This document shows, piece by piece, positions 3,391-33,171 of a stretch of 63,107 nucleotides of DNA (within the stretch, counting starts at the first letter, position 1; every line of letters starts with the position of its first letter). The position numbers were made by a program, and so were the translations under genes. Under the pieces are notes generated by a model, which was given only the letters and a program-made list of their open reading frames with translations, did no database searches and was not told the DNA's origin. The stretch comes from an uncultured Bifidobacteriaceae bacterium (GTDB lineage Bacteria > Verrucomicrobiota > Verrucomicrobiia > Limisphaerales > UBA11358): positions 8,583 to 71,689 of the forward strand of contig CAZUBG010000002.1 in NCBI GenBank assembly GCA_964618545.1, in the 5' to 3' direction.

Positions 3391-4245
3391 TCAAAGACCC
3401 GGCTGCCGCAGGCCCTCAATGCTGCTGTTCTTGTTGGAAAAAGTGGTGATGGATTTAAGGCAAATCCAATCCGGATCGGGCCCGTTGTTGCCGCCCACAT
3501 TCCATTGGGCGGGCGGGGCCCGGAACGCCACGTCGGCACTGTGACCGTCCACAAAGGTCAGCGAGTAGGTGTTGCCATGACGCGTGGAAGGCAGGCTGGC
3601 CGCCTGATTCGCCTCCCCCATGTCCACGAGAAACATGGAATCCCCGATGGTGCTGGCATCCTCCTCAATCAACCGCCAGACCTGGTCGGGATGCAAAATC
3701 TGGCCCTCGCGCCGAAACAAGGTGTAACTGAGGGTGAGATCATCCGGTGGCGTGTTGAAGGTGGAGAACCCCGTGGGATCGTCATCGGAACAGCCATTCA
3801 TCCAGCAATTCATGGAAAAACTGCGGACCAGCGGCTGGCCGTTGAGATTCCGACCATCGGCGGGGCAGCGATACACATTGGGGGAACAGACATACGGCCA
3901 GATTTTTCCCTGTTGGAGGGCGAATTGATTGGTGCAATCGTAATCCGCCCCGAGGGCGCTGACCGCAGGCGGGGGCTGGGCGGACGCCCACCCCGGACAC
4001 CAGCAATACGGATTGACGGCGTCGCTGCCGGAACCGGCCGACCAACTGGAGACCAACTGGCCGTCATTGTCATCCGTGTACATTTTGCAACCCAGATTCA
4101 ATTGCTGCAAATTGGAAAGACATGCGGTGCGCTGCGCGACGATCTTGCCTTTTGACACCACAGGCATCAGGATGGCCGTCAAAATGGCGATGATGGCCAT
4201 CACGGCGAGCAATTCAATCAGAGTGAACGCTCTTTTCAAGGACAT
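3391..4245 (-). CDS. Prepilin-type N-terminal cleavage/methylation protein with H-X9-DG C-terminal motif (DUF1559-like), copy 1
   Basis: Start [28 protein letters not shown]...CLSNLQQ. C-terminal H-GNTYSLTFV-DG. Start moved from the ORF-track 4437 to the ATG just before the AFTLIEL cleavage site. Confidence 0.9.
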   Translation of the reverse strand: MSLKRAFTLIELLAVMAIIAILTAILMPVVSKGKIVAQRTACLSNLQQLNLGCKMYTDDNDGQLVSSWSAGSGSDAVNPYCWCPGWASAQPPPAVSALGADYDCTNQFALQQGKIWPYVCSPNVYRCPADGRNLNGQPLVRSFSMNCWMNGCSDDDPTGFSTFNTPPDDLTLSYTLFRREGQILHPDQVWRLIEEDASTIGDSMFLVDMGEANQAASLPSTRHGNTYSLTFVDGHSADVAFRAPPAQWNVGGNNGPDPDWICLKSITTFSNKNSSIEGLRQPGL

Positions 4246-4499
4246 GTAATTAGAAAACCAGATGTTTGCCCGCAACTCAAGCTTTTTTGATGATTTTCGG
4301 GCGACCCGGGTTCGACCGAAGGTGGGCGCAACCAATCCTGCCGGCCGGTGTTCATTCAACGCATGAAACCACCGGACTCCGCCCGTCAAACGCTGCGTTT
4401 TCTTTTCGCACGCATTACTGGAATTACTCAATTGCACACCGCCCCAACAGTGCTTATCCTATCCGGCAAAATGAATGGCGGCACAAACATTTACCAGGG

Positions 4500-5987
4500 A
4501 TGAAGCCGATTTCCCATTATTCATGGCTGGCCTGGTTGTTGATCGCCCTGGTGTTGGGCGGGGTCCGGGCGGAGGCGTCGGTTACGACATCGGGATTTGC
4601 GCTGACGGCGTACGATGCGACCAACCTGTTTTTCATCAACACCCCGGTGACGACGTTCATTGATGTGTCCAATGGGTCGGGCTTCACCTTGTTCAACTCT
4701 TATGTCACGAACACCTTTTCCGGTCCGGTGACCATTCTCTCCACCACCACCAATGGTTCAGCCACCGAAGTTGGGGCGACCACCAATCCCAGCGACAACA
4801 CGCTCATCTTTTATTTCGAGAATTTCACCAACGCCGAATCCCTGGAAGTCGCCTTCACCTGGCAACCGCTGACCACCAGTCGGCTCACGAATGTGGTGGA
4901 GGCAGCCAGTTCGGATGAGGACATGACCAACACCGCCAGCACCAACCTGGTGTACCAAGTAATCTATGGCGAGGCGGCGGATCTGGAGGTGACGCAGGCG
5001 GTGGTCTCCCCGGCCACGATCACCAATGACTGGGTGATCACCAACGACTGGGTGACCTACTTGGTGACGGTGACGAATCAGGGGCCCGGCACGGTGCCGG
5101 GAGTGTTGCTGACCAACACCCTGCCGGCAGGCGCGGTCTTGCGCGGAGTGTCGCCGGCCGGAGCCTCGTTCACCGCGATCTCGAACACCGTCATCATCAG
5201 TGTGGGTTCGCTGGGTGACGGCGGGGCGGCCAAATATCAATTGACGATCCAACCGACCGTGGCGGGGGCGGCGGCCCTGGTGGCCAGTGCGGGGGCGGCG
5301 GGATTGTATGACCCCGGCTTGCTCAGCCAAACCAACAATCAATTATTCGTCACCAATTACCTGACGGCCAACCTGTTGGTGGGAACCAACTCGGGGCAGG
5401 TCACCGATCCACAAAACGGTTTAAAGGAACAAACCATCCTGGTCTCCAACCCCGGGGCCAATCCAGTGCCCGCGATCCGGGTGGTGGTGACGGGGTTAAC
5501 CAATCGGTTGTACAACGCCAGCGGCACCAATTACGGATACAACCCCGGCAGCACCAATGCCGGCAATCCTTTTGTGGTTTACCCTGCGCCACTGGCGGCC
5601 AACCATCAGGTGAGCCTGCGCTTGCAGTACACCCCCCGGCTGCCGTTCCCCTTCACGAATGGGCAGCTTCAGGCTTACGCGGTGCCGGCGTCGGTGTTGA
5701 ATTACGCCCCCCTGGCCGCCAGCACTTATGGAACCAACCTCAATTTCAGCCGCATCATCCAACTGGCCAACGACGGCGACCTGCTGCTGGAGTTTCCCTC
5801 CGGCCTGACCAACACTTACACGGTCGTTTACAGTGACAATGTGCAGTTTGGCAATGCCATGATCGCGCTCCCGGTCATCGTGCCCGCCGCCAACCGCACC
5901 CAATGGCTGGATTATGGCCCGCCGGAAACGGTGAGCGCCCCGACCAACTCCAGCCAGAGGTTTTACCGAGTGTACTTGAACCCATGA
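4500..5987 (+). CDS. Secreted DUF11-domain surface protein with C-terminal RFYR domain
   Basis: Signal peptide MKPISHYSWLAWLLIALVLGGVRAEA. DUF11 motif ADLEVTQ...VTYLVTVTNQGP...LTNTLPAGA. Ends SSQRFYRVYLNP. Confidence 0.85.
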   Translation: MKPISHYSWLAWLLIALVLGGVRAEASVTTSGFALTAYDATNLFFINTPVTTFIDVSNGSGFTLFNSYVTNTFSGPVTILSTTTNGSATEVGATTNPSDNTLIFYFENFTNAESLEVAFTWQPLTTSRLTNVVEAASSDEDMTNTASTNLVYQVIYGEAADLEVTQAVVSPATITNDWVITNDWVTYLVTVTNQGPGTVPGVLLTNTLPAGAVLRGVSPAGASFTAISNTVIISVGSLGDGGAAKYQLTIQPTVAGAAALVASAGAAGLYDPGLLSQTNNQLFVTNYLTANLLVGTNSGQVTDPQNGLKEQTILVSNPGANPVPAIRVVVTGLTNRLYNASGTNYGYNPGSTNAGNPFVVYPAPLAANHQVSLRLQYTPRLPFPFTNGQLQAYAVPASVLNYAPLAASTYGTNLNFSRIIQLANDGDLLLEFPSGLTNTYTVVYSDNVQFGNAMIALPVIVPAANRTQWLDYGPPETVSAPTNSSQRFYRVYLNP

Positions 5988-6015
5988 CTTTTCACCGGCC
6001 GCCCGTCAACCCGTT

Positions 6016-7122
6016 ATGAGCCATCTGCGTTTAACCAAATGGTACGCCGGAGGACTCCTGGCCTGGACCGCCGGCTGGGCGCTCCCGGCGCAGGCGCAAT
6101 TTTACGATTCCGAGATCACGGATACTTTCGGCGGAAATCCCGGCACCAACGCCTTCATTCGCATCCCGAAGGATACCGATGACTGGACCCGCCATTTCCG
6201 CCTGGGAGCCATGGTCGGCATGAACATCAGCGCCAAATTTGGGATGACGGGCAGCTTCGGGGTTTCCGGCAACAATCCCGCCGCCGGGAAGTTTGACGAC
6301 GGGTACGTTTACCCGGACCAAAGCGGAGACCCGACCCACACCGGTTACTGGGGATACAATAATGCGTCGCAACTGTCCGGAAACACCCTGACCATGCATG
6401 CCATCACCTCCTTTTCGACCGGGGCTGCGGAATCGCAAAGCGACGGGGGGTTTCAGCCGGGACTGGATGTGGCTTATGGCGACAACCTGTGGTACTGGCG
6501 ACACGCCCGCGTGGGCTGGGAACTGGGCTTTGGCTGGCTGCCCATTAACATCACCAGCACCATTAACCACGAGCCGGTTTACGTCAGCCAATCCGTTTAC
6601 ACCTTCAACACCGGTGGCATTGTGGTTCCCGGCGCGCCGTATCAGGGCGGTCCGAGCGGGGTGGGGGAACCCATCATTGCTTATCCGGCCAACGGGTTTA
6701 CCCCGAGTTCCACCACGAACAGCGCCTCCGGCACCTTGTCCGGGACACATACGCTGGACGCCACGCTTTACACCCTTCGGCTGGGCCCCTCGTTTTATTG
6801 GGATTTGTCCCGGCGCTTCAGCTTGGATCTGGCGGCGGGCCCGGCGGTGGGACTGGTCACGGGCGCATACAAATACAACGAAGTCATCACCACCGCCAGC
6901 GGTGGCACCCCGAATTCCGGCGAGGTTTCCGGCTTGGATGTGGTGTATGGCGGCTATGTCAATGGCACCTTCCTGTACCACCTCAAAAACGACGCCGACG
7001 TCTACCTGGGAGCCCAATTCATGCCCATGACGGATGCCACTTTCAGCGGCTCCGGCCGCACGGGGCGCCTTGATCTGGGCGGGCAACTCTATTTCTCCCT
7101 GGGCTTCAACTGGGCGTTTTGA
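6016..7122 (+). CDS. Outer-membrane beta-barrel protein
   Basis: Signal peptide ending AQA, alternating amphipathic strands in the C-terminal half, terminal LYFSLGFNWAF with final Phe (BamA signal). 29 bp downstream of the DUF11 gene. Confidence 0.8.
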   Translation: MSHLRLTKWYAGGLLAWTAGWALPAQAQFYDSEITDTFGGNPGTNAFIRIPKDTDDWTRHFRLGAMVGMNISAKFGMTGSFGVSGNNPAAGKFDDGYVYPDQSGDPTHTGYWGYNNASQLSGNTLTMHAITSFSTGAAESQSDGGFQPGLDVAYGDNLWYWRHARVGWELGFGWLPINITSTINHEPVYVSQSVYTFNTGGIVVPGAPYQGGPSGVGEPIIAYPANGFTPSSTTNSASGTLSGTHTLDATLYTLRLGPSFYWDLSRRFSLDLAAGPAVGLVTGAYKYNEVITTASGGTPNSGEVSGLDVVYGGYVNGTFLYHLKNDADVYLGAQFMPMTDATFSGSGRTGRLDLGGQLYFSLGFNWAF

Positions 7123-7356: not shown

Positions 7357-8535
7357 ATGAAAAGCAAAATGCGACGCATTGCGGTCGTCGGCCTGCCGAT
7401 GCTGCAATCCGTGAATAATCTGGGCAGCGTGGCCATCGCCAATTACGCCGAACGCCGGGGCAACTGGCGGTTTGTGCTCGGGGCGGAGGCGACGGTGGCG
7501 GCGTTTCAATTTTTGCGCACGGTGGAGTGCGACGGGGCCATCGTCCGCATCCTCTCACCGGCCATGAAGCGCGAGGCGCTGAAGGTGCGCGTGCCCCTGA
7601 TCAACGTTTCCTCGTGGCTGGATCATCCCGGGGTGCCGACCGTGCGCCACGATTACCAAACCTGCGGCCGGCTGGCGGCGGAGCATCTGATCGGGAAGGG
7701 CTTCCGCCGGTTCGGCTGCGTGCTGGTGCCGGGGGGATGCATTCCCAAACGCTGCAAAATGTTTTTGGAAACCCTGCAGAAGCGGGATTTAAAAGCCAGT
7801 TTGTTCCATTTGCAAAATCCCAGGCCCTTCCTGCGGCAGCCGGTCTCCACCGGCGAACACCGGCGCTTTGTGGAATGGATCCGCACCCTGCCGCCACCGG
7901 CGGCGCTGGTGCTGATGGACGACTGGGACGCCCCGGTGCTGATGCGCGCCTGCCAGGAGGCCGGCCTGGCCATCCCCCGCGATCTGGTGGTGCTTTCCAT
8001 CGGCCTCCACAGCGAGACCCTCGCGCAGTGTCCGGTGCCGTTGAGCGCCGTCCAGGAGGATCATGAAACCCAAATGAAGACGGTGGTGGAAAGCCTGGAA
8101 CAGATGATGTCCGGCGCCCGGATGGCCGACCGGCTGGTCGAGGTGCCGCCAGTGGGGGTGGTTGAGCGCGCCTCCACCGCCACCCTGGCGATTGAAAACC
8201 GGGCGGTGGCGCGTGCGCTGGATTATATGCGCGCGCATCTCGGGCAGCCCATCAACATCGCCACCGTGGCGGATGAAACGGGAATTTCGCGCGCCACCCT
8301 CGACCGCCAGTTTCAAGAGGAGACCGGCCGGACGCCGCATGATTATCTGGTGGAAGAGCGGATTGGCCGGGCACAGGAAATGTTGCAGGCCCGCCCGCCC
8401 GCCAGCCTTGCGCAAATCGCCCGGACGTGCGGATTTGCCAATCGCCGCCGGTTGAACCTGGTGTTCAAGCAGGTCACCGGCAAATTGCCCGCCCAGTGGC
8501 GGCGAACCCCCGGATCGTTACGCCCTGTAAAATAG
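7357..8535 (+). CDS. XylR-family transcriptional regulator (periplasmic-binding-protein-like domain plus AraC HTH)
   Basis: N-terminal ligand domain (GRLAAEHLIGKGFRRF) and C-terminal AraC double HTH (VADETGISRATLDRQF...IARTCGFANRRRLNLVFKQVTGKLPAQWR). Confidence 0.9.
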   Translation: MKSKMRRIAVVGLPMLQSVNNLGSVAIANYAERRGNWRFVLGAEATVAAFQFLRTVECDGAIVRILSPAMKREALKVRVPLINVSSWLDHPGVPTVRHDYQTCGRLAAEHLIGKGFRRFGCVLVPGGCIPKRCKMFLETLQKRDLKASLFHLQNPRPFLRQPVSTGEHRRFVEWIRTLPPPAALVLMDDWDAPVLMRACQEAGLAIPRDLVVLSIGLHSETLAQCPVPLSAVQEDHETQMKTVVESLEQMMSGARMADRLVEVPPVGVVERASTATLAIENRAVARALDYMRAHLGQPINIATVADETGISRATLDRQFQEETGRTPHDYLVEERIGRAQEMLQARPPASLAQIARTCGFANRRRLNLVFKQVTGKLPAQWRRTPGSLRPVK

Positions 8536-8679: not shown

Positions 8680-11007
8680 CTACGGCCCCGCCTTTAACCG
8701 GTAAAAGCGGCGGGGAATGCCGGCGGCATTGGGATCCACGATCAGCATCGGGCCGCCCGGACTCTGGAAGGACAGGAGGGAAAACCAAGTGATCAGATTC
8801 GAGGAGTATTCAATGGTATAGGTGGTGTCCGGCGCGGAGACGAAACCGAATTGAAACGAGCCGTCGGAATTTTGTCCGGGCGCGTACAACTGCGGTCCGG
8901 CCACCGTCCCGTTGGTGGTGGTGATCACCAGCACCAACGACTGGGTGGCCGACTGGTTGGAGCTGTCGAACAGGGTGACGTTCAGACTGTGAGTCCCCGC
9001 CGTGCCGCTCAGCGCGGTGCCAAAGAGCAGGCCGTTGGTGGACAGCCCAAGGCCGGAAGGCAGGGAGCCCGTTCCCAGCTCCACTCCCCAGGAATAGGGC
9101 GGCAAACCGCCGACAAACTGGAGTTGGTTCGAGTAGGCCACACCAATCACCGCGTTCGGGAGCGAAGTGGTCACGATTTGAAGCGAGGGAGCCACCGTCA
9201 GCGAAAATGACGCCGTGACATTGGTCGGGGTCTGGTCGGTGACCTGGATGGTGAAATCAAAAGCACCGCTGTTGGTGGGGGTTCCGGAAAGAAAGCCCCC
9301 GCTGGACAAAAACAATCCGGGCGGCAGGGAATTGGACACCACCGCGCAGGAATAAGGCGGCTCGCCGCCGGAGGGACTGAACGAGAAGTTGTAACCGGCA
9401 TTGACAACCCCGGACGGAAGGGTGCCACCGGCCAGCGACAGAGGCATGGGGGGAACGGCGGTGAAGTTGACGACGGCATTGGTGGGCGGGATGGTGACGA
9501 CCGGATAATTGGTGATGGTCAAATCATACAGGGTGGACAACCCGTCATTGCCGCAACAGTTGACGCCCACGCTCCAGGTTCCCGGCACCGCGCCCAGGGA
9601 ATAATTGCCGCTGCTGTCCGTGTCCACATAGGCTTGATAGCCCGCGCCATAGACCGTGCCGGTGACATTGATTCCGACCCCGGCCAGCGCCACGCCGAAC
9701 TCGTTCTGCAGATGGCCGGAAATCTCCGCACCCGCCGGGATGACGGTGAAGTTTTGCTGGATGGCCTGGCCGGTGGCCGGAAAGCCGGGGCTGCTACTGC
9801 TGATCAAATACGACGCGGGAGGGAGCGATGAACTGTCCGGGCCCCAGTTCCATTCATTAGACCCGCCCTGGATGGCAATGCAGTAGTTGCCGTTGGCATC
9901 ACTGATCCCGCTGGCGGTGTAGAGCCCCAATTCGTCCTGGGCGGAAACGCTGAGGTTGGTGAACGGCACGCCGTTGGTATCGGCGATCCGGCCGTAAAAC
10001 AGCGCGGTGGCTTTGTACACGGTGATGTTCTGGCCGGCCACGTTTCCGCCGCTGGTGTCCACGGACAGCGAATTCTGCGGCGCCACATAGGCGCGTTCCG
10101 CCAGGTGGCCGTCGTCCACTTTGATTTTCCACACGGCCGGGGCCACGGAGGCGGAGTAATTGCCGTTGGAATCGGTGAGCGCGATGGCCCTGAGGCTGCC
10201 GGATTTGAGTTCCAACAGCACGCCTCCCAGAATGTTGCCGGAGGTGTCACTGACGTTGCCCGAGATGGCCACCGTGCCGTTGGTCGCGGAAAGAGTGTTC
10301 GTGACGGCCAGCCCGTTGCCCAGGCTGACCTGGGGCGCGAACGAGGTGTCCGCGAAACAGCCGGGGGTCAGCGCCTGTATGGAATAGGACCCGGGATTGA
10401 GGTTGATCTGATAATTGCCGTTGGCGTCCGCCTCCGTCGCGCCGGCATAAATGCTTTCCGTCCCCTCCGGCATCAACGCCACCACGAGGCTGTGGGGCAG
10501 CGGCGTCAGGCCGTTGCTGTAAACAACGCCACTGACAGATTGACCGGTGCTGGAATTCGTGATGACCAAGGCCGCTGTCACCGGGGTGAAGGCCTTGGTG
10601 GGGCTGGAAAGTTTAAAGACGTAATTCCCGACCAGGTTGCCCAGCACGCGGGGCGGGGCGAGGTTCAGGGCGGTGGTGATGGCTCCGGTCGCGGAGTTGC
10701 TGTCGAAAGGCACATTGTTGTTGGTGATGCCGCCCTCCACAAAGGCGGCGTTATCGGTGATCTTAAAGGCATCCACCAGCGGGTCGTTGGTTTGAATCAC
10801 GCCGGAGCCGGTGAGATCAAGGTAACGCTGGATTTGGACCTGGCCTCCGCTGGGAATGCCGCCAATTTGCAGGGTGACGGCGCCTGAAGAGTAGTTGCCG
10901 ATGACGGGGGGATTAATGCTGAAGGTGACCTGGGCCTGACAGGAGAAAATTGCCGACACTACAAAAACCGGCAGCAAAACAAAAAAACAGTTCAACATTT
11001 TCTTCAT
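8680..11007 (-). CDS. Secreted protein with carboxypeptidase-regulatory-like repeats, putative Ig (He_PIG) domains and C-terminal RFYR domain
   Basis: Signal peptide MKKMLNCFFVLLPVFVVSAIFSCQA. Repeated TD.NGNY motifs, GGEPPY/GGLPPY...LPPGL Ig repeats. Ends IPRRFYRLKAGP. Start moved from 11130. Confidence 0.85.
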   Translation of the reverse strand: MKKMLNCFFVLLPVFVVSAIFSCQAQVTFSINPPVIGNYSSGAVTLQIGGIPSGGQVQIQRYLDLTGSGVIQTNDPLVDAFKITDNAAFVEGGITNNNVPFDSNSATGAITTALNLAPPRVLGNLVGNYVFKLSSPTKAFTPVTAALVITNSSTGQSVSGVVYSNGLTPLPHSLVVALMPEGTESIYAGATEADANGNYQINLNPGSYSIQALTPGCFADTSFAPQVSLGNGLAVTNTLSATNGTVAISGNVSDTSGNILGGVLLELKSGSLRAIALTDSNGNYSASVAPAVWKIKVDDGHLAERAYVAPQNSLSVDTSGGNVAGQNITVYKATALFYGRIADTNGVPFTNLSVSAQDELGLYTASGISDANGNYCIAIQGGSNEWNWGPDSSSLPPASYLISSSSPGFPATGQAIQQNFTVIPAGAEISGHLQNEFGVALAGVGINVTGTVYGAGYQAYVDTDSSGNYSLGAVPGTWSVGVNCCGNDGLSTLYDLTITNYPVVTIPPTNAVVNFTAVPPMPLSLAGGTLPSGVVNAGYNFSFSPSGGEPPYSCAVVSNSLPPGLFLSSGGFLSGTPTNSGAFDFTIQVTDQTPTNVTASFSLTVAPSLQIVTTSLPNAVIGVAYSNQLQFVGGLPPYSWGVELGTGSLPSGLGLSTNGLLFGTALSGTAGTHSLNVTLFDSSNQSATQSLVLVITTTNGTVAGPQLYAPGQNSDGSFQFGFVSAPDTTYTIEYSSNLITWFSLLSFQSPGGPMLIVDPNAAGIPRRFYRLKAGP

Positions 11008-11365: not shown

Positions 11366-11396
11366 AAAAAAAGCGCCCCGGCTTGCACCGGGGCGC
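11366..11396 (-). terminator. Intrinsic terminator after the 1063-aa gene
   Basis: Minus strand: GCGCCCCGG-tgcaag-CCGGGGCGC followed by T7. Confidence 0.8.
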
Positions 11397-22721: not shown

Positions 22722-22728
22722 CAACAAC

Positions 22729-22757
22729 AAAAAAGGGCGGCCGTCGCCGGCCGCCCT
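22729..22757 (-). terminator. Intrinsic terminator after the 1534-aa gene
   Basis: Minus strand: AGGGCGGCC-ggcgac-GGCCGCCCT followed by a T run. Confidence 0.75.
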
Positions 22758-22781: not shown

Positions 22782-25700
22782 TTAATGCACCAGCCGGTAG
22801 AAACCGGCGGCGTTGGTGCCAATCAAGTTGGTGTAAGGACTCGTGGCCCCGGGAACCGCAATGTAAGGCCCGGCCACGTTCGTGGAGGTCTGCAGGTTAA
22901 ACGCGGCATTGGTCCAGGTGAGAACCAAATTCCCACCGGCCAGTTGCGCGCTCACCGGGATGGGGGTCACGTTCACCACATTCACCGTGAGGGTCGAGCT
23001 ATTCGTGCCGCCAATGCCATCCGTGACGGTGTAGCCGATGGTCGAGACGCCCGTGAAATTGTTCGCGGGGGTGAAGAGGACTTGTTGCCCGGCATTGACG
23101 ATGCTCGCCGTCCCATTGGCATCCGGGTTCAGGCTGACCAGGCTCAGGCTGCCGCCCGGGGTTTTCACCACGTCGTTGGTCAACGGATTCAGCACGCTGG
23201 CCGGACTGTTTTCGGAAACGGTGTAAACCACGGGGTTGACCACCGGCGGGATGTTGGTCACCAGCACCGTGAGGGTGGAGCTGTTGGTGTTCCCAAGGTC
23301 ATCCATGATCGTGTAGCCGATGGTGTCGGTGCCCGCGAAATTATTCGTCGGGAGGTAGGTGATGTTCGTCCCGCTGATCGTCACCGTGCCGTTGGTGTCC
23401 GGGCCGACGCTGATGAGACTCAGCTCCGAGCCGGCGTCCAGGAGCAGCGGACTCAGGAGGTTGGTCGTGTTTTCGGTGACGGCATAGGCGCCGGGGTTGG
23501 CCTGCGGCGGATAAAACACGCTGTCAAACGCCAGTCCGACGGTGAGCTGGCCCACGCTGACCGAGCCCGCGCTGGAGCCGGATTCGCGCAGTTCAAAATT
23601 GGCGATGTCATACAGGTTGGTGGGCGTGGGGGCCGGGGTGCTGTCGGTCACGCTGGGGGCCGACTGGTTGGTGGGATTGATCCAGAGGGTCGAGAACCCG
23701 TTGGCAACCACCAACCGAACGATCACGAGGTAATTGCTGCCCGGAGTGAGGTCCTGCGGGAACATCACGCTGTTGGTGCCATTGGCCCCGTTGAAGTTGT
23801 CAATGCCGATCCGATAGTTGCCCAGCGCCGCGCCGTTGGTGGCCGCGACCACCCGGCCCTCCACGTCGCCGGTGACGCCGGAGCCATCGTTGAAGATCGC
23901 AAAATAAGAGCCGTTGGCCGCGGGCATTTTGTTGGGGCTCATGTTGACCATGAAGCTGGCATACAACACCGCCGCGCTGTTGGTCTTGTAAGGGCTGCCC
24001 AGCAACTGGGCCTGCACATTCTCGGTGTTGTCCGCCGTGTCCACGAGGGCGTACCCGGAACCGACCTGCATTTGTCCATTGATCCCGGAAAGATGATTCC
24101 ACAAGCCGCCGGCCACGACGTCGAGGGAGCCGCTGCTGTCATAATCGAAGTAATCCACCAACACCACATTGGTATTGGGCCGGACCATGACTTCAATGTT
24201 CGCGGTGGTGCTGCGGGGCTCCAGTCCGCCATCCTCCTGATCCGGGTCGGTGACGGTGACGCTGATTTTGGCGTTGCCCACCTGGTCGGCGACCGGGGTG
24301 ATGGCGAGGGTGAGATTTCCCGTGCTGGGATTGCCGCCAAACACCAGGTTGCCGGTGGGAATCACCGTGTTATTGTCGGAAACCGCCGAATAAGTCAGGT
24401 TGTTTGCGGTATTCCGGGCGGAGCCGATGGCGAACGGAATCGTCAGGCCGGAATTGGCCAGCAGATTGGTGGTTTGCAGGGAGGTCAGCGTATTGGTCGG
24501 GGGCTGGTTGATGGACCCGACCGTGAGGACGAACCAGGAAGCCGAGGAATCCCCGCTGGCATCGGTGGCGGTGACCAGGATCGGCCCCGCGTCATTGGCG
24601 TCGGGAATGGGGTTGCCGGCGAAGGAAATGCTCAGCGTGCGGTTGGTGCCGGAACCGCCAAACACAAAGTTCGGGCTGATCGTGCTGGGAGTCGGCTCGG
24701 CGGCGACCTCGGCCAGCGTCACCGCATTGTAAGCAAGCTGATCCGGCGGGGTGGTGCCGGCCAGCACGGTGAAATTCAGGGTGAGGGTGTTGGTGTCCAC
24801 CGTGTTGGTGTTGGCCATGGCACTGAGGACCGGCGGCACGTTGTTGTTGGTGATGGCATCGGCGGTGATGGCCACCAGGTCGTAGGTTACGGTGCCGGGC
24901 GCGGAATTTCCGGAGGCTCCCGACGTGTAGGAATTGGCGGTGCCCACCCAGGTATTGGTCGTGCCAACACCATACGTGGCCGTGTTTTCATATTCCGTCA
25001 CGATGCGGACGCCGAAGTTGGGATTGTTCTCCACCCCGGGGAAGCCCACGAGACTGTAGGTGAAGGTGTAATAACCGGCATTGCCGCTGCCATAGAGGCC
25101 GCTGAAGGTCGAGCTGGCCGGGTAATCAATCCAATTCGTTCCGTTCGTGGTGAATTGCAGCCGGTCGTAGTCGCTGGCGGTGGCCGAGACGCGGGAGTCA
25201 TAGGAAACGTTGATGTTTTTGGCCCCGACGGTGCTGACATTGAACTGCACCCCGTTCGCCTTGTTGGTGCCCGTCACCGGATAGTTTTCCGTGCCCCAGG
25301 AGAAATTCGGGGAGGGCTGGACAAAGCCGAACGGGGAAAACACCCCGGCCACGTCGGCGGGATCCGTGGCGCCGGAAAACGGCGAGGTGCCCGGATCGTA
25401 GCAGGTGCCGACGGCGGCGGCGGTGCCATAGCCAATGAAAGCGGCCGGATTATTGAGGCAGTTGGGATTGATGGCGGTATTCGTGAATTGAACCCCGTCA
25501 AAATCCCACAGCGCCAGCATGCCCTGGGTGTTGGTGACCGAGAGGAGCGACGCCACGGAACTGGTGACGGAGCCGAACGCATTGGCGGCCACCACGACGA
25601 AGTTGTTCAGGGCGGTGGTGGTCTGCAAATTGGTGAGGGTCAGGAGGCTGGTGTTGGCGCCGAACACCACCGAGGCATCGCCCTGCACGCCATTGTTGAC

Positions 25701-27443: not shown

Positions 27444-28310
27444 TCAGTTGGGCGTCGTGGGGGAGGGATACCAATAAATTGTGCGTGATTGCGCCCATTC
27501 GGCGGCTCCGTTGTCCGACGGCTCCCCGTCGGCGACGCCCTGGGATTCCCAAAAATCGTTGGTCCTCGCCGAGATGGCGCTGCCATCCACCATCGAGAAA
27601 TTCCCGAGCTTGTTGTGGCTGTGCCGCGCGGTGGCGTAAAAGCCGGTGACGCAGGACTCAGCCGCCGAGACCGGGATCGCATTGGGGTCATTTTCCGCCA
27701 CAAAAACCGTGGCCGACGGCTTGAGCACATTGGCCAGCTTGGTTTGTCCGCAGCCGGTGTTCACCCGGGTGCCGAAATTGACGCAGATGCGCGAATTTTC
27801 CGCGTACATGAAAAAAGCCTTCTCAATGTTCGGAGGATTGGCGTAGCCAGCGCTCGCCAGGGGATTGGGACAGGTGGGGCAGGAGAAAATGGTGTGACTG
27901 CCCGGCAGCGGGGGATTCTGCGCATGGTTGTAACCGCCATAAAAGTCAATCAAGGGCAGTTGCGACAGCATGGGGGGCACGGCGTTATACCAGGCCGTGT
28001 GCAGGTTGTCCGCCGTCCCGGACGATCCGGGGTCGTCAATGGCGTTGCCCGCATTGCCTTCTTCGGGGACCGCATCGTTGTTGAGATCCTGCGCATACAT
28101 GGTGAAGCCCAGCCCCCATTGCTTCAGATTGCTGAGACATTGGATGCTTTGCGCCTTTTGTTTGGCCGAAGCCAGCGCCGGCAGGAGCATGGCCGCCAGG
28201 ATGGCAATGATCGCGATCACCACCAACAGCTCGATGAGCGTGAAAGCCCGGAACCACTTCAATTTCAAAACGTTGACCGGCCGGAGACCACCGAAATTAG
28301 TTGTCTTCAT
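27444..28310 (-). CDS. Prepilin-type H-X9-DG protein, copy 3
   Basis: MKTTNFGG...[35 protein letters not shown]; [12 protein letters not shown]. Confidence 0.92.
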
Positions 28311-29016: not shown

Positions 29017-30396
29017 ATGAACCCCTCGCGCGCCATCCTCCGGTTTCTAACCCTGGTTTTCCTGGGGCTCGTCATTCCCCCGGCCTCCGCCCAAACCCGA
29101 ACCCTGCGGATCGTGACCCAAAACATTGAAGCCGACATTAATAACGTCACCGCGCCGCTGCCCGGCCTGATTGCCCCGCCCGGCGGCAGCGTGACGCAGG
29201 GCGGCGTGCTGGAGGGCATTGGCGAGGAAACTGTGGGCGGCGATCCGGCCCAGCCGCTGGACGTCCTGGCCCTGCAGGAGACCACCAGCAATCCCGCCAC
29301 CGTGGCCCCGATTGTCAATGGTTTGAACGCCTTCTACCAATCGCCCGGCCGGTACACCAACAGTCTTTATCAGGCCGTTGAAAGCGGCGGCGACACCGCC
29401 GACGGCAACGGTCCCAATGCGGTCATTTACAACACCCAAACCCTGCAACTGCTCGCCTCCGTGCCGGTGGATCCCCCTGGCGGCCCGAACGCACTGGGCT
29501 CCGCTTATGGCGAATACCGCGAGGTCATGCGCTATGAATTTGCCCCGGCCGGGGTCGCGCCGGCCTCCTCCAACGAGTTCTACATTTATGTCAGCCATTA
29601 CAAATCCGGAACGTCCAGCGCCGACCTGACCGACCGCGCCGGGGAGGCGGTGATCATCCGCAATGACGAAACCAGTTTGCCCGCCAATGCGCGCGTGCTT
29701 TATGTCGGCGATTACAACATCTCCACGAGCAGTGAGGTCTCCTATGCCGGCCTGCTGGCCGCCAGCGCCCCCAATGGCATCCTGCAGGGTCAGGGCATTG
29801 ACCCCTTTAACACAAACGGCGGCACGAGCCTCAATTGGGCCGTCAGCACCACCAGCGCCCCGCTGCTGGCGGCGATGACGGAACACTCCTATGAACTCGA
29901 GTACCGCGACGATTTGCAAATCATGACCACCAATGTCTATGATCGCGCCCCCGGCGGTCTGCAACTGGTGCCCGGGACTTACCACACGTTTGGCAATAAC
30001 GGCTCCACGCCTTACCGTGGCACGGTTAATTCCGGCTCCGACACCGCGTTAAACACGAACTTGAGCGCCGGCGCCCCCTTGGGAGCCGCCCAATTGTATC
30101 TGGACCTGACCAATGCCAGCGACCACCTGCCGGTGGTGGCCGACTATACCGTTCCACTCCCCGCCCCCATCATCACCCGCTTCAACCTGACCGGCTCCAA
30201 TTGGGTGATCAACGCGGCCAATGGAGTCACCGGGGGCGTCTATATCGTCTGGATGGGCGCCAACCTGCTCCCATCCCTGGCGAATTGGACCGCCATTGCC
30301 ACCAACACCGCCAGTGGCGGAAACTTCACCCTGACGGCCACCAACACCTTTAACCCGGCCGAGCCGGCGCGGTTTTTCCGGTTGCTGACCCAATGA
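29017..30396 (+). CDS. Secreted endonuclease/exonuclease/phosphatase (EEP) family protein with C-terminal RFFR domain
   Basis: Signal peptide ending ASA. EEP motifs TQNI, LALQE, SHYKS, VGDYN, ASDHLPV. Ends PARFFRLLTQ. Confidence 0.85.
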   Translation: MNPSRAILRFLTLVFLGLVIPPASAQTRTLRIVTQNIEADINNVTAPLPGLIAPPGGSVTQGGVLEGIGEETVGGDPAQPLDVLALQETTSNPATVAPIVNGLNAFYQSPGRYTNSLYQAVESGGDTADGNGPNAVIYNTQTLQLLASVPVDPPGGPNALGSAYGEYREVMRYEFAPAGVAPASSNEFYIYVSHYKSGTSSADLTDRAGEAVIIRNDETSLPANARVLYVGDYNISTSSEVSYAGLLAASAPNGILQGQGIDPFNTNGGTSLNWAVSTTSAPLLAAMTEHSYELEYRDDLQIMTTNVYDRAPGGLQLVPGTYHTFGNNGSTPYRGTVNSGSDTALNTNLSAGAPLGAAQLYLDLTNASDHLPVVADYTVPLPAPIITRFNLTGSNWVINAANGVTGGVYIVWMGANLLPSLANWTAIATNTASGGNFTLTATNTFNPAEPARFFRLLTQ

Positions 30397-30414: not shown

Positions 30415-30461
30415 TGTAACACTCATGTAACTTGCCTGTGACCACACTTTACCGCCATGCT
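30415..30461 (+). promoter_or_regulatory. Pho-box-like repeat plus -35/-10 promoter of the phosphoesterase gene
   Basis: TGTAAC-actca-TGTAAC-TTGCCT-N18-CATGCT. Confidence 0.7.
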
Positions 30462-30468
30462 GGTTACA

Positions 30469-33171
30469 ATGATGTTAAAACGCTTTTTCCGGGTAATTGC
30501 CTGCTGGTCACTCGTCGGATTTGCCGCCGCCGTCCCGGCCGCTCAGTCAGTGGAGAGCGATTTGACTTTTGCCGCCACCACCAATGAGGTGGGCCGGAAC
30601 GCCGCCGGCTTGGAAACCCCGGTCAACCAGCGTGTCACCCCTGCGGGCCTTCAGGTTGACCTGCCCGGGATGCGGCCGCAGGCGCTGGCGCTGAGCCCGG
30701 ACGGAAAACTGCTTGTCACCGCCGGATTGACGAGTGAACTCCTCAGTCTGGATCCTGCAACCGGAACCATTCTCCAGCACATTCCGCTGCCGGCCGACCA
30801 AACCCCGCCGCGCGCCCACGATGCCCCCGGAGTGCAGACGCCCAACACCAAATCCCAATTAAGTTTCACCGGGCTGGTGTTCTCGCCGGACGGCTCACGC
30901 ATTTACCTGGCCAACGTCAACGGCGACGTGAAAGTCTTTGGCGTCCAGCCCGATCACACCGTCAGCCCGCTGTTTGCCCTGCCGCTGCCCCCGGCCAATG
31001 CGCCCGGTCGCGTGGCGGACATTCCCGCCGGCCTGGCCGTTTCGCGGGACGGCAAAAAGCTCTGCGTCGCGCTCAATCTTTCCAACCGCCTGGCCGAGTT
31101 GGATGCTGCCACCGGCCGGGTGTTGCACCTGTGGAACACCGGGGTGGCGCCGTTTGACGTGGTGGCGGTCCGGGGAAAAATTTATGTGAGCAACTGGGGC
31201 GGTCGCCGGCCCGGCCCGGACAGCCTCACCGGCCCCGCCGGGCGCGGCACCCTCGTGCGCGTGGACCCCCGTTCCATTGCCAGCGAAGGCTCCGTGACGG
31301 TCATCCATCCCGAGACGGACACCAATTCCCAGACCTCGACCCCGGACCTTCTCACCGGCCTGCACACCTGCGCCCTCGCGTGTTCCCCGAACGGCCGCTG
31401 GCTGGTGGCCGCCAACGCCGGCAGCGACACCCTGAGCATCATTGACACCCGCACCGACAAAATCGTGGAAACCCTCTCCGCCCGGCAGAACCCCGCCGAC
31501 TTGTTTGGCGCGCAACCCAATGCCCTGGCCTTTGACAAATCCGGCAAAACGTTGTTCGTCGCCAACGGCACGCAAAACGCCGTGGGCGTGTTTCAGTTCC
31601 GACCGGGTCGATCGAAGTGGCTCGGCCTCATTCCCGTCGGCTGGTTTCCCGGCGCGCTGGTCTTTGACGCCCGGCGCAAACAGGTGGACGCGGCCAATAT
31701 CAAGAGCATCGGCAATCAAATGCAGCCGGCCCGGCCCGGCCGGGGCATGGGCTTCAACACCAAACAATATTGCGGCTCCCTGTCGCTCGTGCCCGTCCCG
31801 TCGAAAAAGGCACTGGCGGCCTTCAGCCAGACGGCCCTGGCCAACCTGCGGTATCCGCTGCTCGCCCAGTCCCAACTGCCGCCCCGCGCCGGTCAACCCG
31901 CGCAACCCGTGCCCGGGCGCGCCGGCGAACCGAGCGTGTTCCGGCATGTCATCTACCTCATCAAGGAAAACCGGTCCTACGACCAGGTGCTCGGCGACGT
32001 GACGTCCGGCAACGGCAACACCAACCTGTGCATCTTTGGCGAACGCGTCACTCCCAACGAACACAAACTGGTCCATGATTTTGTGCTGCTGGACAACACC
32101 TATTGTTGCAGCATTCTCAGCGCCGACGGACATCAATGGGCCGACACCGCCATCGCCACCGATTATGACGAACGCGAGTTTGCCGGCTGGCCGCGCAGTT
32201 ATCCGGCGGGCGGGGATGATGAGGGCCGGGACGCACTCGCCTATTCCCCCGCCGGATTCATCTGGAACAACGCGCTGGCCCACGGCCAAACCGTCGCCGA
32301 TTTTGGCGAATTCACCACCGGCCGGAAACAGTGGCAGAATCCCGCGCACACGAACAAAATCACCTTTCTGGATGTCTGGCGCGATTACACCAATGGCGCC
32401 AATGCCATTGTGTATTCCAGCGAACCGGACATTGAAGCCCTGCGGCCTTATATCATTTCCAACACCATCGGCTGGGATTTGGATGTGCCGGATGCCTGGC
32501 GCGCCACGCGCTTCATCCAGGAATTGCATCACTATGAACAGACCGGCACCCTGCCGAACCTGATCATCATCTGGCTGCCGAACGATCACACCAGCGGCAC
32601 AAAATACGGCTCCCCCACCCCGGCGGCCCAGGTGGCCGACAATGACCTCGCCGTGGGCCGGGTCGTCGAAGCGGTCAGCCACAGTTCCTTCTGGACGAAC
32701 ACCTGCATCTTTGGCATCGAGGACGACCCGCAAAATGGCTGGGACCACGTGAGTGGTTACCGCACCACCGCCTATGTCATCAGCGCCTACACCAAACGCA
32801 ACGCGGTGATCGGCACCCAATACAACCAGACCAGCCTGTTGCGGACCATGGAACTCATCCTCGGCCTGCCCCCCATGAACCAGATGGACGCCACCGCCAC
32901 CCCGATGTTTGACTGCTTCACCAACATCCCGGACGCCACCGCCTATGACGCCGTGCCCAACCGGATTCCGCTGGACCAGATGAACCTGTCGGAGCGGCGT
33001 TTTGCCGATGCGCAACTGAGGAAGGACGCCCAAGTGTCCGCGAAATTGCGACTCGACCAGGAAGACCAATGCCCCGAGGATCTCTTCAACCGCATCCTCT
33101 GGCGCGCCGCCAAAGGCACTGCGGAACCCTATCCCGTGTGGGCGGTAAGGTCGGAGAAGGATGGGGATTGA
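30469..33171 (+). CDS. Bifunctional YncE-type beta-propeller / phosphoesterase (alkaline-phosphatase superfamily) protein
   Basis: Signal peptide, YVTN-like repeats (VWNTGVAPFDV, VANAGSDTLSIID), then HVIYLIKENRSYDQVLGD...SADGHQW...LPNDHTSG...EDDPQNGWDHV. Start taken as 30469 because ATG 30457 lies inside the predicted -10. Confidence 0.9.
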   Translation: MMLKRFFRVIACWSLVGFAAAVPAAQSVESDLTFAATTNEVGRNAAGLETPVNQRVTPAGLQVDLPGMRPQALALSPDGKLLVTAGLTSELLSLDPATGTILQHIPLPADQTPPRAHDAPGVQTPNTKSQLSFTGLVFSPDGSRIYLANVNGDVKVFGVQPDHTVSPLFALPLPPANAPGRVADIPAGLAVSRDGKKLCVALNLSNRLAELDAATGRVLHLWNTGVAPFDVVAVRGKIYVSNWGGRRPGPDSLTGPAGRGTLVRVDPRSIASEGSVTVIHPETDTNSQTSTPDLLTGLHTCALACSPNGRWLVAANAGSDTLSIIDTRTDKIVETLSARQNPADLFGAQPNALAFDKSGKTLFVANGTQNAVGVFQFRPGRSKWLGLIPVGWFPGALVFDARRKQVDAANIKSIGNQMQPARPGRGMGFNTKQYCGSLSLVPVPSKKALAAFSQTALANLRYPLLAQSQLPPRAGQPAQPVPGRAGEPSVFRHVIYLIKENRSYDQVLGDVTSGNGNTNLCIFGERVTPNEHKLVHDFVLLDNTYCCSILSADGHQWADTAIATDYDEREFAGWPRSYPAGGDDEGRDALAYSPAGFIWNNALAHGQTVADFGEFTTGRKQWQNPAHTNKITFLDVWRDYTNGANAIVYSSEPDIEALRPYIISNTIGWDLDVPDAWRATRFIQELHHYEQTGTLPNLIIIWLPNDHTSGTKYGSPTPAAQVADNDLAVGRVVEAVSHSSFWTNTCIFGIEDDPQNGWDHVSGYRTTAYVISAYTKRNAVIGTQYNQTSLLRTMELILGLPPMNQMDATATPMFDCFTNIPDATAYDAVPNRIPLDQMNLSERRFADAQLRKDAQVSAKLRLDQEDQCPEDLFNRILWRAAKGTAEPYPVWAVRSEKDGD

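What the first reader, a model, noticed from the sequence alone, without database searches (positions are those of the whole stretch)
3391..33171. Repeated pilin + giant secreted protein modules: candidate PVC surface-display system
Three H-X9-DG prepilin genes each neighbour large secreted proteins. 28310 precedes the 1534-aa protein; 15548 precedes the 1063-aa protein and then the 775-aa Ig protein; 4245 is divergent from the DUF11 protein plus an outer-membrane barrel. The prepilin cleavage motif (TIGR02532) and H-X9-DG motif (TIGR04294) are established, but their substrates are not known to me. The one-pilin-per-cargo pairing suggests cargo-specific (pseudo)pilins that select or display a partner through a type II secretion/type IV pilus machine encoded elsewhere.
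Basis: partly seen in the sequence, partly recalled or inferred. Interest (0 to 1): 0.8.

Follow-up and report, generated by a model that had tools for sequence, protein, structure and literature searches.

The report
Pilin-like genes paired with giant exoproteins
A Verrucomicrobiota genome segment carries three pilin-like genes, two of which form conserved two-gene operons with giant secreted Ig-rich proteins, suggesting (not proving) that each pilin is a dedicated partner for exporting or displaying its neighbour.

Summary
Three prepilin-type genes with an H-X9-DG motif lie at 3391-4245, 14694-15548 and 27444-28310, all on the minus strand. Each has a large Sec-exported neighbour with a C-terminal "FYR" beta-sandwich.

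Two pairs are bicistronic operons that end in strong terminators: pilin2 with the 1063-aa protein, and pilin3 with the 1534-aa protein. Both pairs are inherited as units. Homologues in the pilin2 clade (51-78% identity) sit beside a 1063-related protein in 6 of 6 other contexts. Pilin3 orthologues sit beside the giant's orthologue in all 11 loci where it could be checked. Flanking genes differ between these loci.

The third pairing is divergent (pilin1 against DUF11 plus a barrel) and is kept in only 1 of 3 orthologous contexts.

Across 80 pilin-centred loci from the PVC superphylum, about 24% of pilins have a protein of at least 600 aa immediately downstream. The figure for control genes is 8% (OR about 3.5, p about 4e-4). 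In other phyla the partners are mostly CAZymes without the FYR tail, so the tail does not define the pairing.

The FYR domain is an uncurated, very widespread module (28,397 clusters). It also occurs far from any pilin.

The cargo-specific-pseudopilin mechanism remains plausible but is untested here. The literature has already noted the family's expansion and its signal-peptide-bearing neighbours.

The parts
27444..28310 (-). Pilin3: prepilin-type H-X9-DG protein (288 aa from ATG 28310; probable start TTG 28268 gives leader MKLKWFRA|FTLIELL)
   Evidence: N_methyl 27.4 bits and TIGR02532 26.6 bits. Motif and H-X9-DG read directly. Start codons. Twelve orthologues at 51-72% identity.
22782..27386 (-). 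1534-aa Sec-exported giant with Ig_3/I-set, Big_9 and cadherin-like domains and a C-terminal FYR beta-sandwich; the partner of pilin3, 57 nt downstream
   Evidence: Pfam. CTD HMM E = 2e-9 at residues 1478-1534. Orthologues at 50-69% identity lie downstream of every pilin3 orthologue that could be checked.
22734..22757 (-). Intrinsic terminator (10-bp stem, 9 GC pairs, T-run) closing the pilin3-giant operon
14694..15548 (-). Pilin2: prepilin-type H-X9-DG protein (284 aa; MRKLRA|FTLIELL)
   Evidence: AF2 model has pLDDT 92.8: a 51-residue N-terminal helix followed by a loop-rich head with four short strands.
11416..14607 (-). 1063-aa Sec-exported protein (Ig_3, I-set, DUF5689; LTD in orthologues) with a divergent FYR tail (QFYFITAQ); the partner of pilin2, 86 nt downstream
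   Evidence: Pfam. Tail hhalign E = 2.7e-5. Related proteins lie beside pilin2-clade genes in L001, L081, L084, L110, L111 and L112.
11373..11396 (-). Intrinsic terminator (10-bp stem, 9 GC pairs, T7) closing the pilin2-1063 operon; it separates the operon from the 775-aa gene
8680..11007 (-). 775-aa secreted protein (CarboxypepD_reg x3, He_PIG x2) with a canonical FYR C-terminal domain; a separate transcription unit
   Evidence: Pfam. CTD HMM E = 1e-18. Terminator upstream.
3391..4245 (-). Pilin1: prepilin-type H-X9-DG protein (284 aa; MSLKRA|FTLIELL). No convincing gene lies downstream of it.
   Evidence: Orthologue contexts.
4500..5987 (+). DUF11/CLIPPER protein with signal peptide and FYR C-terminal domain, divergent from pilin1 (254-bp spacer)
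   Evidence: PF01345 39.5 bits. CTD HMM E = 6e-13. Orthologue at 60% identity in L101 in the same arrangement.
6016..7122 (+). 368-aa signal-peptide protein ending ...GFNWAF, a putative outer-membrane beta-barrel; forms a conserved pair with the DUF11 protein
   Evidence: No Pfam hit. C-terminal aromatic residue read directly. Orthologue at 62% identity in L101.
29017..30396 (+). 459-aa endonuclease/exonuclease/phosphatase-family exoprotein with FYR C-terminal domain, divergent from pilin3
   Evidence: PF03372 23 bits. CTD HMM E = 7e-16. A 74% orthologue sits upstream of the pilin2 orthologue in L081-L083.
7357..8535 (+). Regulator of the Peripla_BP_3 + AraC-HTH type, lying inside the island (context only)

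Best explanation
**Shown.**
- The three genes encode type IV pilin-class proteins. Each has a class III signal peptide with Ala at -1, Phe at +1 and Glu at +5, followed by a long hydrophobic N-terminal helix.
- They belong to the hugely expanded H-X9-DG/DUF1559 family of the PVC superphylum.
- Two of them are the first gene of a two-gene operon. The second gene encodes a giant Sec-exported protein, rich in Ig-like domains, that ends in a small beta-sandwich (the FYR domain). Each operon ends in a strong terminator.
- These pilin-giant pairs are inherited together across Verrucomicrobiota lineages while the flanking genes change.
- The two cargo families share an unannotated domain of about 220 aa, and the two pilins are each other's closest paralogues in the window. 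This fits duplication of a whole module.

**Inferred.**
- After cleavage by a prepilin peptidase, each pilin enters the short pseudopilus or fibre of a T2SS/T4P-type machine encoded elsewhere.
- Its family-specific head domain docks the co-encoded, periplasmically folded giant.
- The giant is then either pushed through the secretin or held on the fibre at the cell surface. The pilin would thus be a dedicated partner for one exoprotein.
- The same logic would apply to the pilin-CAZyme pairs seen in Lentisphaerota and Planctomycetota.
- Pilin1 is a looser case: a solitary pilin near secreted proteins.
For: - **Pilin class:**. Homology to solved pilins covers only the N-terminal helix. The AF2 model (pLDDT 92.8) shows a 51-residue helix plus a head with four strands.
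- **Operon anatomy:** spacers of 57 and 86 nt with no terminator between the genes, and 10-bp GC-rich terminators directly after each giant.
- **Conserved pairing, pilin2 clade:** 6 of 6 other contexts (L001, L081, L084, L110, L111, L112) at 51-78% pilin identity. The partner is 27-67% identical.
- **Conserved pairing, pilin3 clade:** all 11 loci with downstream sequence (10 from the metagenome scan plus the second L084 module).
- **Tandem modules in L084:** these keep the pilin-clade to cargo-clade correspondence.
- **Shared 220-aa cargo domain:**
- **PVC-wide enrichment:** a downstream same-strand gene of at least 600 aa in 17/75 pilins against 32/418 controls, OR 3.5, p = 5e-4. Among same-strand neighbours the figure is 46% against 15%.
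- **Nature of the partners:** exported hydrolases and lyases or Ig proteins.
- **Signal peptides:** all window partners have Sec signal peptides, read directly.
- **Literature:**
  - A pulG-like pseudopilin with 67 paralogues lies in an alginate-utilisation cluster, most of whose genes are over-expressed on alginate, and T2SS export of the lyases was proposed (PMC13274419).
Against: - No physical or genetic evidence for a pilin-cargo contact was obtained. AlphaFold-multimer was not available.
- No T2SS/T4P machine or prepilin peptidase is encoded in the window.
- About three quarters of family members have no large downstream partner.
- Pilin1 orthologues lose the DUF11 neighbour in 2 of 3 contexts.
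- In L111 the gene order is inverted.
- Operon conservation shows co-function or co-regulation, not binding.
- Partners are heterogeneous, with no common recognisable docking element across phyla.
- FYR-domain proteins occur without pilins.
Confidence: 0.4

Rival explanations
1. Substrate-capture (PUL-like) model. The pilin-like proteins form, or sit on, fibres or the inner membrane. Their variable heads bind the external polymer or surface that the co-encoded enzyme or adhesin acts on. The genes are co-transcribed because they serve one substrate, not because the proteins touch each other.
For: - In other PVC phyla the partners are overwhelmingly CAZymes: heparinase II/III-like, GH51, GH127, GH123, sulfatase, DUF4838.
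- An AraC/XylR-type regulator and a PA14/DUF1080 sensor kinase lie in the island.
- A pseudopilin gene lies in the alginate-utilisation cluster of V. alginivorum, and a pseudopilin is among the genes over-expressed on alginate (PMC13274419).
- Pfam files DUF1559 as SBP_bac_10, a solute-binding name.
- From memory, not checked here: pilus-like fibres of planctomycetal crateriform structures have been proposed to capture polysaccharides.
Against: - The AF2 head has four short strands and long loops, not a two-lobed periplasmic-binding fold. It has no significant structural match in the PDB.
- The window partners are Ig-rich giants with no recognisable catalytic domain.
- No ligand-binding evidence exists.
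Confidence: 0.25
2. Co-location without a specific partnership. This is a very abundant, rapidly duplicating gene family that accumulates in accessory, secretome-rich regions. Some copies have become fixed in operons with large exoproteins and share only regulation or a common general pathway, for example as interchangeable pseudopilus subunits.
For:
- Most copies lack a large neighbour.
- Pilin1 contexts vary.
- FYR genes are not enriched at immediate adjacency.
- The EEP-FYR gene sits beside different pilins in different genomes.
Against: - Pairing is preserved in 17 of 17 checkable orthologous contexts for two clades, despite changed flanks.
- There is a 3.5-fold enrichment over control genes in the same loci.
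- The tandem modules keep the clade correspondence.
Confidence: 0.2
3. Membrane-anchored periplasmic assembly factor. The pilin-like protein stays in the inner membrane through its N-terminal helix, polymerised or not, and acts as a chaperone or holdase for folding of the very long beta-rich partner before export by another route.
For: - N_methyl+SBP_bac_10 proteins were recovered in detergent-soluble membrane fractions of T. immobilis (PMC8567305).
- The partners are giant multi-domain beta proteins.
- A conserved Cys pair and the invariant H/D/E/R positions suggest a structured, possibly metal-binding head.
Against: - The invariant Glu+5 and the canonical class III leader are hallmarks of subunits that polymerise.
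- Partners of ordinary size (CAZymes of 480-800 aa) are also paired.
- No precedent was found in the papers read.
Confidence: 0.1

Closest known systems
Type II secretion pseudopilins (GspG major; GspH/I/J/K tip complex)
   Same: - Class III signal peptide, Phe+1, Glu+5 and a long hydrophobic N-terminal helix.
- Sources annotate the homologues as PulG-like or T2SS proteins.
- The partners are Sec-exported folded exoproteins, the class of substrate that T2SS handles (established knowledge).
   Different: - Scores against TIGR01710 GspG are 22-34 bits against a cut-off of 88.85, and cover the helix only.
- The head is twice the size of GspG and has no PDB relative.
- There are dozens of paralogues scattered through the genome rather than one gspG-K operon.
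- Each copy is paired with one exoprotein gene. To my knowledge no cargo-dedicated pseudopilin is known in classical T2SS.
Type IV pilus minor-pilin/tip-protein modules (minor pilins with PilY1; CofB-CofJ and TcpB-TcpF in type IVb pili)
   Same: A pilin-class gene is encoded next to a large non-pilin protein, which it presents at the fibre tip or helps to secrete. Some bacteria carry several alternative modules. This is recalled from established literature and was not re-read here.
   Different: - No PilY1 domain was found in any window partner.
- There is a single pilin per module rather than a set of four minor pilins.
- Partners end in the FYR beta-sandwich and are Ig-rich or enzymatic.
DUF1559 / N_methyl+SBP_bac_10 expansion of Planctomycetota
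   Same: - The same family in the broad sense: homologues carry PF07963 plus PF07596.
- Tens to about 100 paralogues per genome, of unknown function.
[quoted passage not shown]
   Different: - The window proteins fall below the PF07596 gathering score.
- The papers read did not describe conserved bicistronic pairing with specific giant partners, nor quantify it.
PulG-like pseudopilin in the alginate-utilisation cluster of Verruconatronum alginivorum
   Same: A Verrucomicrobiota pseudopilin with 67 paralogues is encoded inside a cluster of exported enzymes, 14 of whose genes are over-expressed on alginate. A pseudopilin also appears among the three over-expressed genes the authors list as outside the clusters. 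The authors suggest T2SS export of the co-encoded lyases (PMC13274419).
   Different: - The partners there are alginate lyases in a multi-gene cluster.
- Here they are Ig-rich giants in two-gene operons.
- No specificity was claimed or tested there.
Type IX secretion C-terminal domain (Por_Secre_tail)
   Same: A small C-terminal beta-sandwich that ends many large exported proteins of one phylum. The last FYR copy ends the protein in 135 of 144 top representatives.
   Different: - No sequence hit to any curated C-terminal sorting model, and no significant structural match to any PDB entry.
- The domain is often tandemly repeated and internal.
- No sorting role has been shown.

Membership tests
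Type IV pilin / pseudopilin class (class III signal peptide proteins) | Short basic leader; Gly or Ala at -1; Phe+1; Glu+5; about 20 hydrophobic residues; N_methyl/TIGR02532 above cut-off | tested here: met
   All three score 27-31 bits on PF07963 (gathering score 21.2) and 26.6-28.9 bits on TIGR02532 (cut-off 16.3). The motif RA|FTLIELL is invariant.
Type IV pilin / pseudopilin class (class III signal peptide proteins) | Lollipop architecture: an N-terminal helix of about 50 residues packed on an antiparallel beta-sheet head | tested here: met
   AF2 model of pilin2, pLDDT 92.8: helix at residues 9-59, then a head with strands at 161-164, 197-202, 241-246 and 251-255. This is a prediction, not a solved structure.
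Type IV pilin / pseudopilin class (class III signal peptide proteins) | Cleavage and N-methylation by a prepilin peptidase, and polymerisation into a fibre | not testable with these tools
   No peptidase or machine genes are in the window. This needs experiment.
TIGR04294 H-X9-DG-CTERM domain proteins | H-X9-DG motif near the C terminus, scoring above the model cut-off | tested here: inconclusive
   The motif is present in all three by direct reading, and His, Asp and Gly are invariant in 73 homologues. The HMM scores 15.7 bits against a cut-off of 19 for pilin2 and does not list pilin1 or pilin3 at E <= 0.01.
Pfam PF07596 DUF1559 / SBP_bac_10 | Whole-protein score above the gathering score of 23.3 bits | tested here: not met
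   Pilin3 scores 19.5 bits; pilin1 and pilin2 have no hit. Some homologues at 52-61% identity do carry precomputed PF07596 hits, so the window proteins are peripheral relatives.
T2SS major pseudopilin GspG (TIGR01710) | Equivalog score of at least 88.85 bits over the whole 134-position model | tested here: not met
   22-34 bits, matching model positions 1-75 at most.
Verru_Chthon cassette proteins C/D (TIGR02599, TIGR02596) | Subfamily score above cut-off (256.5 and 70 bits) and a four-gene cassette | tested here: not met
   15-22 bits, N-terminal helix only. No cassette is present around the genes.
T4P minor pilin + PilY1 tip module | A PilY1-type partner and a set of minor pilins | tested here: not met
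   No PilY1 domain in any partner. There is a single pilin per module.
T9SS-type C-terminal sorting domain | Match to the Por_Secre_tail/TIGR04183 models | tested here: not met
   No such hit even at E <= 10 in Pfam or NCBIfam. The best Foldseek matches are generic Fn3, Ig or CBM32-like folds with E >= 0.086.
PEP-CTERM sorting signal | PEP motif followed by a transmembrane helix and a basic tail at the C terminus | tested here: not met
   The tails end 2-6 residues after FYR/FFR, or 4 residues after the divergent QFYF tail of the 1063-aa protein, with no hydrophobic helix.

The most novel reading that the evidence does not exclude
PVC bacteria run a modular addressing system. A repertoire of dozens of pseudopilin paralogues, each co-inherited with one exoprotein (a giant adhesin-like protein or a CAZyme), serves as a set of cargo-specific adaptors. 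These adaptors plug individual substrates into one shared T2SS/T4P-type machine for secretion or fibre-tip display. This would explain the unexplained expansion of the DUF1559/H-X9-DG family.
Probability: 0.25. Interest if true: 0.8.

Novelty: new variant of a known kind. Interest (0 to 1): 0.6.

Why it matters
- The H-X9-DG/DUF1559 proteins are among the largest paralogous families in Planctomycetota, Verrucomicrobiota and Lentisphaerota. They have no assigned function (PMC10632474, PMC8567305).
- How type II secretion systems recognise their substrates is a long-standing open question.
- Conserved one-pilin-one-exoprotein operons give concrete pairs that can be tested genetically, such as pilin2/1063 and pilin3/1534.
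- If the pairs prove cognate-specific, this would reveal a new way of addressing cargo to a pilus-type machine. It would also explain how these polymer-degrading bacteria deploy hundreds of exoenzymes without SusC/D systems.
- The uncurated FYR C-terminal domain (28,397 clusters) deserves a family model of its own.

Tried and rejected
1. **Reverse sampling from the FYR domain.**
   - The word-indexed profile search gave only 16 short proteins.
   - Three of these could be placed on contigs. They showed no pilin within 10 kb, but n is too small to settle the question.
2. **Immediate adjacency of FYR genes to pilins.** A within-locus permutation was not significant at 300 bp or 1 kb (p = 0.41 and 0.19). 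It was significant only at 2 kb (p = 0.02). Fisher tests gave the same pattern.
3. **The idea, prompted by the Pfam name SBP_bac_10, that the head is a periplasmic solute-binding fold.** This is not supported by the AF2 secondary structure. Foldseek found no PDB match at E <= 0.001.
4. **The FYR tail as a T9SS-like or PEP-CTERM sorting signal.** No model hit was found. The weak sequence match to the Paenibacillus CBM32 modules (E = 1e-6 over 51 columns) was not borne out as a specific structural match.
5. **Verru_Chthon cassette or GspG membership.** Scores were far below the cut-offs.
6. **Annotation of the shared 220-aa cargo domain and of the giant's first 430 residues.** Nothing turned up in Pfam or the PDB.
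7. **A second pilin plus a PQQ-propeller downstream of the pilin1 orthologue in L101.** These genes are absent from the window.
8. **First versions of my ORF caller.** These mis-called pilin1 and were replaced.

Full report
**1. What is in the sequence**

The window has about 60% G+C. Its left half (about 3.4-39 kb) is an accessory, secretome-rich region. Its right half is housekeeping: Lon, a LolA-like protein, cytochrome oxidase subunit I, CtaA/CtaB, Ffh and an MFS transporter.

Three minus-strand genes encode pilin-class proteins:
- 3391-4245 (pilin1)
- 14694-15548 (pilin2)
- 27444-28310 (pilin3)

All three pass Pfam N_methyl (27-31 bits against 21.2) and TIGR02532. They share an invariant RA|FTLIELLxVxAIIAIL segment with Glu at +5. 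Each contains H-X9-DG near the C terminus. Pilin3 most likely starts at TTG 28268, which gives a typical 8-residue leader.

The curated H-X9-DG model (TIGR04294) and DUF1559 (PF07596) are only approached, not reached: 15.7 against 19 bits, and 19.5 against 23.3 bits. The proteins are therefore peripheral members of that super-family. Many of their homologues at 52-61% identity do carry PF07596.

The family is enormous. The word-indexed search saturated at 7978 hits. Sources annotate the hits as Verrucomicrobiota prepilin-type or PulG-like proteins.

**2. The pilin fold**

An AlphaFold2 model of pilin2 built on 73 homologues is confident (pLDDT 92.8). It shows a 51-residue N-terminal helix followed by a loop-rich head with four short strands. 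The H-X9-DG residues lie on the last hairpin.

A profile search of PDB sequences finds pilins and GspG only through the N-terminal helix. Foldseek finds no structural relative for the whole model. The head is family-specific and is not a two-lobed solute-binding fold, despite the Pfam name SBP_bac_10.

**3. The neighbours**

All neighbours have Sec-type signal peptides, read directly.

| Neighbour | Coordinates | Features |
|---|---|---|
| Giant, 57 nt downstream of pilin3 | 22782-27386(-) | 1534 aa; Ig_3/I-set, Big_9, cadherin-like |
| Protein 86 nt downstream of pilin2 | 11416-14607(-) | 1063 aa; Ig_3, I-set, DUF5689; LTD in orthologues |
| Further protein | 8680-11007(-) | 775 aa; CarboxypepD_reg/He_PIG |
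| Divergent from pilin1 | 4500-5987(+) and 6016-7122(+) | DUF11/CLIPPER protein, then a 368-aa protein ending in Phe (barrel-like) |
| Divergent from pilin3 | 29017-30396(+) | EEP-family exoprotein |

Four of these proteins end in a homologous domain of about 65 aa, with the pattern L.L.W....Y.LQ.S..L..W..L...RFYRL.... The tail of the 1063-aa protein (QFYFITAQ) is a divergent copy (hhalign E = 2.7e-5). No FYR-tailed ORF occurs in 33-63 kb.

Under random gene order, all three pilins touching an FYR gene has p about 0.005-0.011.

**4. Operon anatomy**

Strong intrinsic terminators sit immediately after both giants. Each has a 10-bp stem with 9 G-C pairs and a T-run. They lie at 11373-11396(-) and 22734-22757(-). 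No terminator lies between either pilin and its giant.

The units are therefore bicistronic: pilin, then giant, then terminator.

**5. Is the pairing conserved?**

*Pilin2 clade.* Homologues at 78% (L081-83), 60% (L084), 58% (L110), 55% (L111, L112) and 51% (L001) identity all lie next to a protein related to the 1063-aa one (27-67% identity). Each partner has an FY-type tail: QFFFITTQ, QFYYISTQ, HFYFITTQ, QFYKVSSP or QFFRLYQAP. The flanks differ between loci and include Kdp genes, peptidase S10, GH92 and isocitrate dehydrogenase. In L111 the order is inverted.

*Pilin3 clade.* A metagenome scan returned 12 orthologues at 51-72% identity. In all 10 with enough downstream sequence, the next gene on the same strand is the orthologue of the giant (33-69% identity; 33% for the truncated L095). 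Where the C terminus is present, the tails read FYRLVH, FFRLVH, FYRLKLGE, FFRFKP or, in L092, FIDVKVVP, which lacks the aromatic-aromatic-Arg motif. In L086 the gene appears split.

*Both modules together.* L084 carries both modules in tandem. There, the pilin upstream of the giant-like protein groups with the pilin3 clade, and the other pilin groups with the pilin2 clade.

*Shared cargo domain.* The two cargo families share an unannotated domain of about 220 aa. It spans residues 21-254 of the 1063-aa protein and residues 1070-1278 of the giant. It was found in no other protein family of the loci. This fits duplication of a whole pilin+cargo module.

*Pilin1.* This case is different. The 68% orthologue in L101-103 keeps the divergent DUF11-FYR plus barrel pair (60-62% identity). 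The 65-68% orthologues in L104-106 instead face a GDSL lipase and have no large partner.

**6. Is it general?**

I analysed 80 pilin-centred loci from GTDB species genomes (Verrucomicrobiota, Lentisphaerota, Planctomycetota and a few others). I used a simple longest-ORF caller of my own.

| Measure | Pilins | Controls | Statistic |
|---|---|---|---|
| Downstream same-strand gene >= 600 aa | 17/75 | 32/418 genes of 150-450 aa in the same loci | OR 3.5, p = 5e-4 |
| >= 600 aa among same-strand downstream neighbours | 46% | 15% | p = 3e-5 |

Spacers are mostly under 100 bp.

The large partners include:
- heparinase II/III-like lyases
- GH51, GH127 and GH123-like enzymes
- a sulfatase
- DUF4838 proteins
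- a beta-helix protein
- two membrane TPR proteins
- Ig-rich giants in Verrucomicrobiota

Four others gave no Pfam hit.

The general rule is therefore 'pilin followed by a large exported protein'. It applies to about a quarter of family members and is not tied to the FYR tail.

**7. The FYR domain**

- It has no Pfam or NCBIfam model.
- A profile of it matches 28,397 clusters at 50% identity in 1.84 billion representatives.
- It is often tandemly repeated, yet the last copy ends the protein in 135 of 144 top hits.
- AF2 predicts a six-strand beta-sandwich (pLDDT 85). It has only generic Fn3, Ig or CBM32-like structural neighbours (E >= 0.086).
- Within pilin-centred loci, FYR genes are enriched within 2 kb of a pilin: 11/12 against 81/178 for genes of at least 500 aa (p = 0.002), and a permutation p of 0.02.
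- They are not enriched at immediate adjacency.
- Three FYR-centred loci chosen without regard to pilins contain five FYR-bearing ORFs (three of them short FYR-only ORFs) and no pilin.

The broader pairing claim holds.

**8. Mechanism**

*Shown:* pilin class, operon structure, conserved co-inheritance, and enrichment.

*Inferred:* after processing by a prepilin peptidase, each pilin joins the pseudopilus or fibre of a T2SS/T4P-type machine encoded elsewhere; none is in the window. It then uses its specific head to load or display the co-encoded exoprotein.

I give this about 0.4. The rivals are:
- a substrate-capture, PUL-like role for the pilin head (0.25)
- non-specific co-location or co-regulation of an abundant family (0.2)
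- a membrane-anchored assembly factor (0.1)

No experiment or multimer prediction could be run here to separate them.

**9. Relation to what is known**

- The expansion of N_methyl+DUF1559 proteins is documented in Planctomycetota, at 41-100 copies per genome.
- Two of these genes are essential in P. limnophila.
- In Verruconatronum alginivorum, a pulG-like pseudopilin with 67 paralogues lies in one of the two alginate-utilisation clusters that hold 14 of the 17 genes over-expressed on alginate. A pseudopilin is also named among the remaining three over-expressed genes (PMC13274419).
- None of the papers read describes conserved one-pilin-one-giant operons, quantifies the adjacency, or proposes cargo-specific adaptors.

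I therefore rate this as a new variant of a known kind, interest 0.6. The finding is sound as an observation. It is partly right as an interpretation, and it yields well-defined gene pairs for a decisive test.

Noticed in passing
window 18071-22264: A low-GC island (0.48-0.50 against about 0.60). It holds two paralogous genes (779 and 527 aa) whose N termini share a lipobox-like LTGCHTT motif. The first carries Ig_3/I-set domains; the second has no Pfam hit. Possibly horizontally acquired lipoproteins.
   Followed up: partly
C termini of window 4500-5987(+), 8680-11007(-), 22782-27386(-), 29017-30396(+); also L002-L066: An uncurated beta-sandwich of about 65 aa that ends in RFYR[VL]xxxP. It matches 28,397 clusters at 50% identity, is often tandemly repeated, and its last copy almost always ends the protein. 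It has no Pfam or NCBIfam model and deserves one. Its role (sorting, anchoring or merely structural) is unknown.
   Followed up: yes
window 13846-14547(-) and about 23553-24179(-): A domain of about 220 aa shared only by the two pilin-linked cargo families: residues 21-254 of the 1063-aa protein and residues 1070-1278 of the giant, plus their orthologues. It has no Pfam or PDB match. It is a candidate pilin-docking element.
   Followed up: partly
window 4500-7122; L101 5202-7780: The DUF11/CLIPPER-FYR protein plus the 368-aa putative outer-membrane barrel form a conserved adjacent pair (60-62% identity; 4-bp overlap in L101). This looks like a two-gene surface module in its own right.
   Followed up: partly
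window 29017-30396; L081 123-1505: The EEP-family (nuclease/phosphatase-like) FYR exoprotein lies beside pilin3 in the window, but upstream of the pilin2 orthologue in L081-L083 (74% identity). A phosphoesterase/beta-propeller protein (30457-33171) and the LTD/DUF5689 domains of the 1063 family are also nearby. Together these hint at extracellular nucleic-acid or phosphate scavenging.
   Followed up: no
window 33267-38786(-): A 1839-aa sensor histidine kinase whose ectodomain carries PA14 and 3-keto-disaccharide hydrolase (DUF1080) domains. With the AraC/Peripla_BP_3 regulator at 7357-8535 and the LuxR-type regulator at 16785-17855, it suggests substrate-responsive control of the island.
   Followed up: no
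window 1271-3391: There is no convincing gene downstream of pilin1, only short ORFs without family hits. In L101 the orthologous position holds a second pilin-like gene (217 aa) and a PQQ_2 beta-propeller protein (716 aa), both absent from the window.
   Followed up: partly
L084 4005-7094: Upstream of the tandem pilin-giant modules lies a small cluster: a 159-aa N_methyl protein followed by 218-aa and 646-aa proteins of unknown function. It may be a minor-pilin set.
   Followed up: no
alignment A3 (pilin2 homologues): Invariant or near-invariant positions (pilin2 numbering) are Cys42/Cys138, Trp98, Pro139, Glu202, Arg230, His238 and Asp248-Gly249. These suggest a disulphide and a possible metal-binding site at the H-X9-DG hairpin, reminiscent of the calcium site of GspG. 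That comparison is recalled from memory and was not tested.
   Followed up: no
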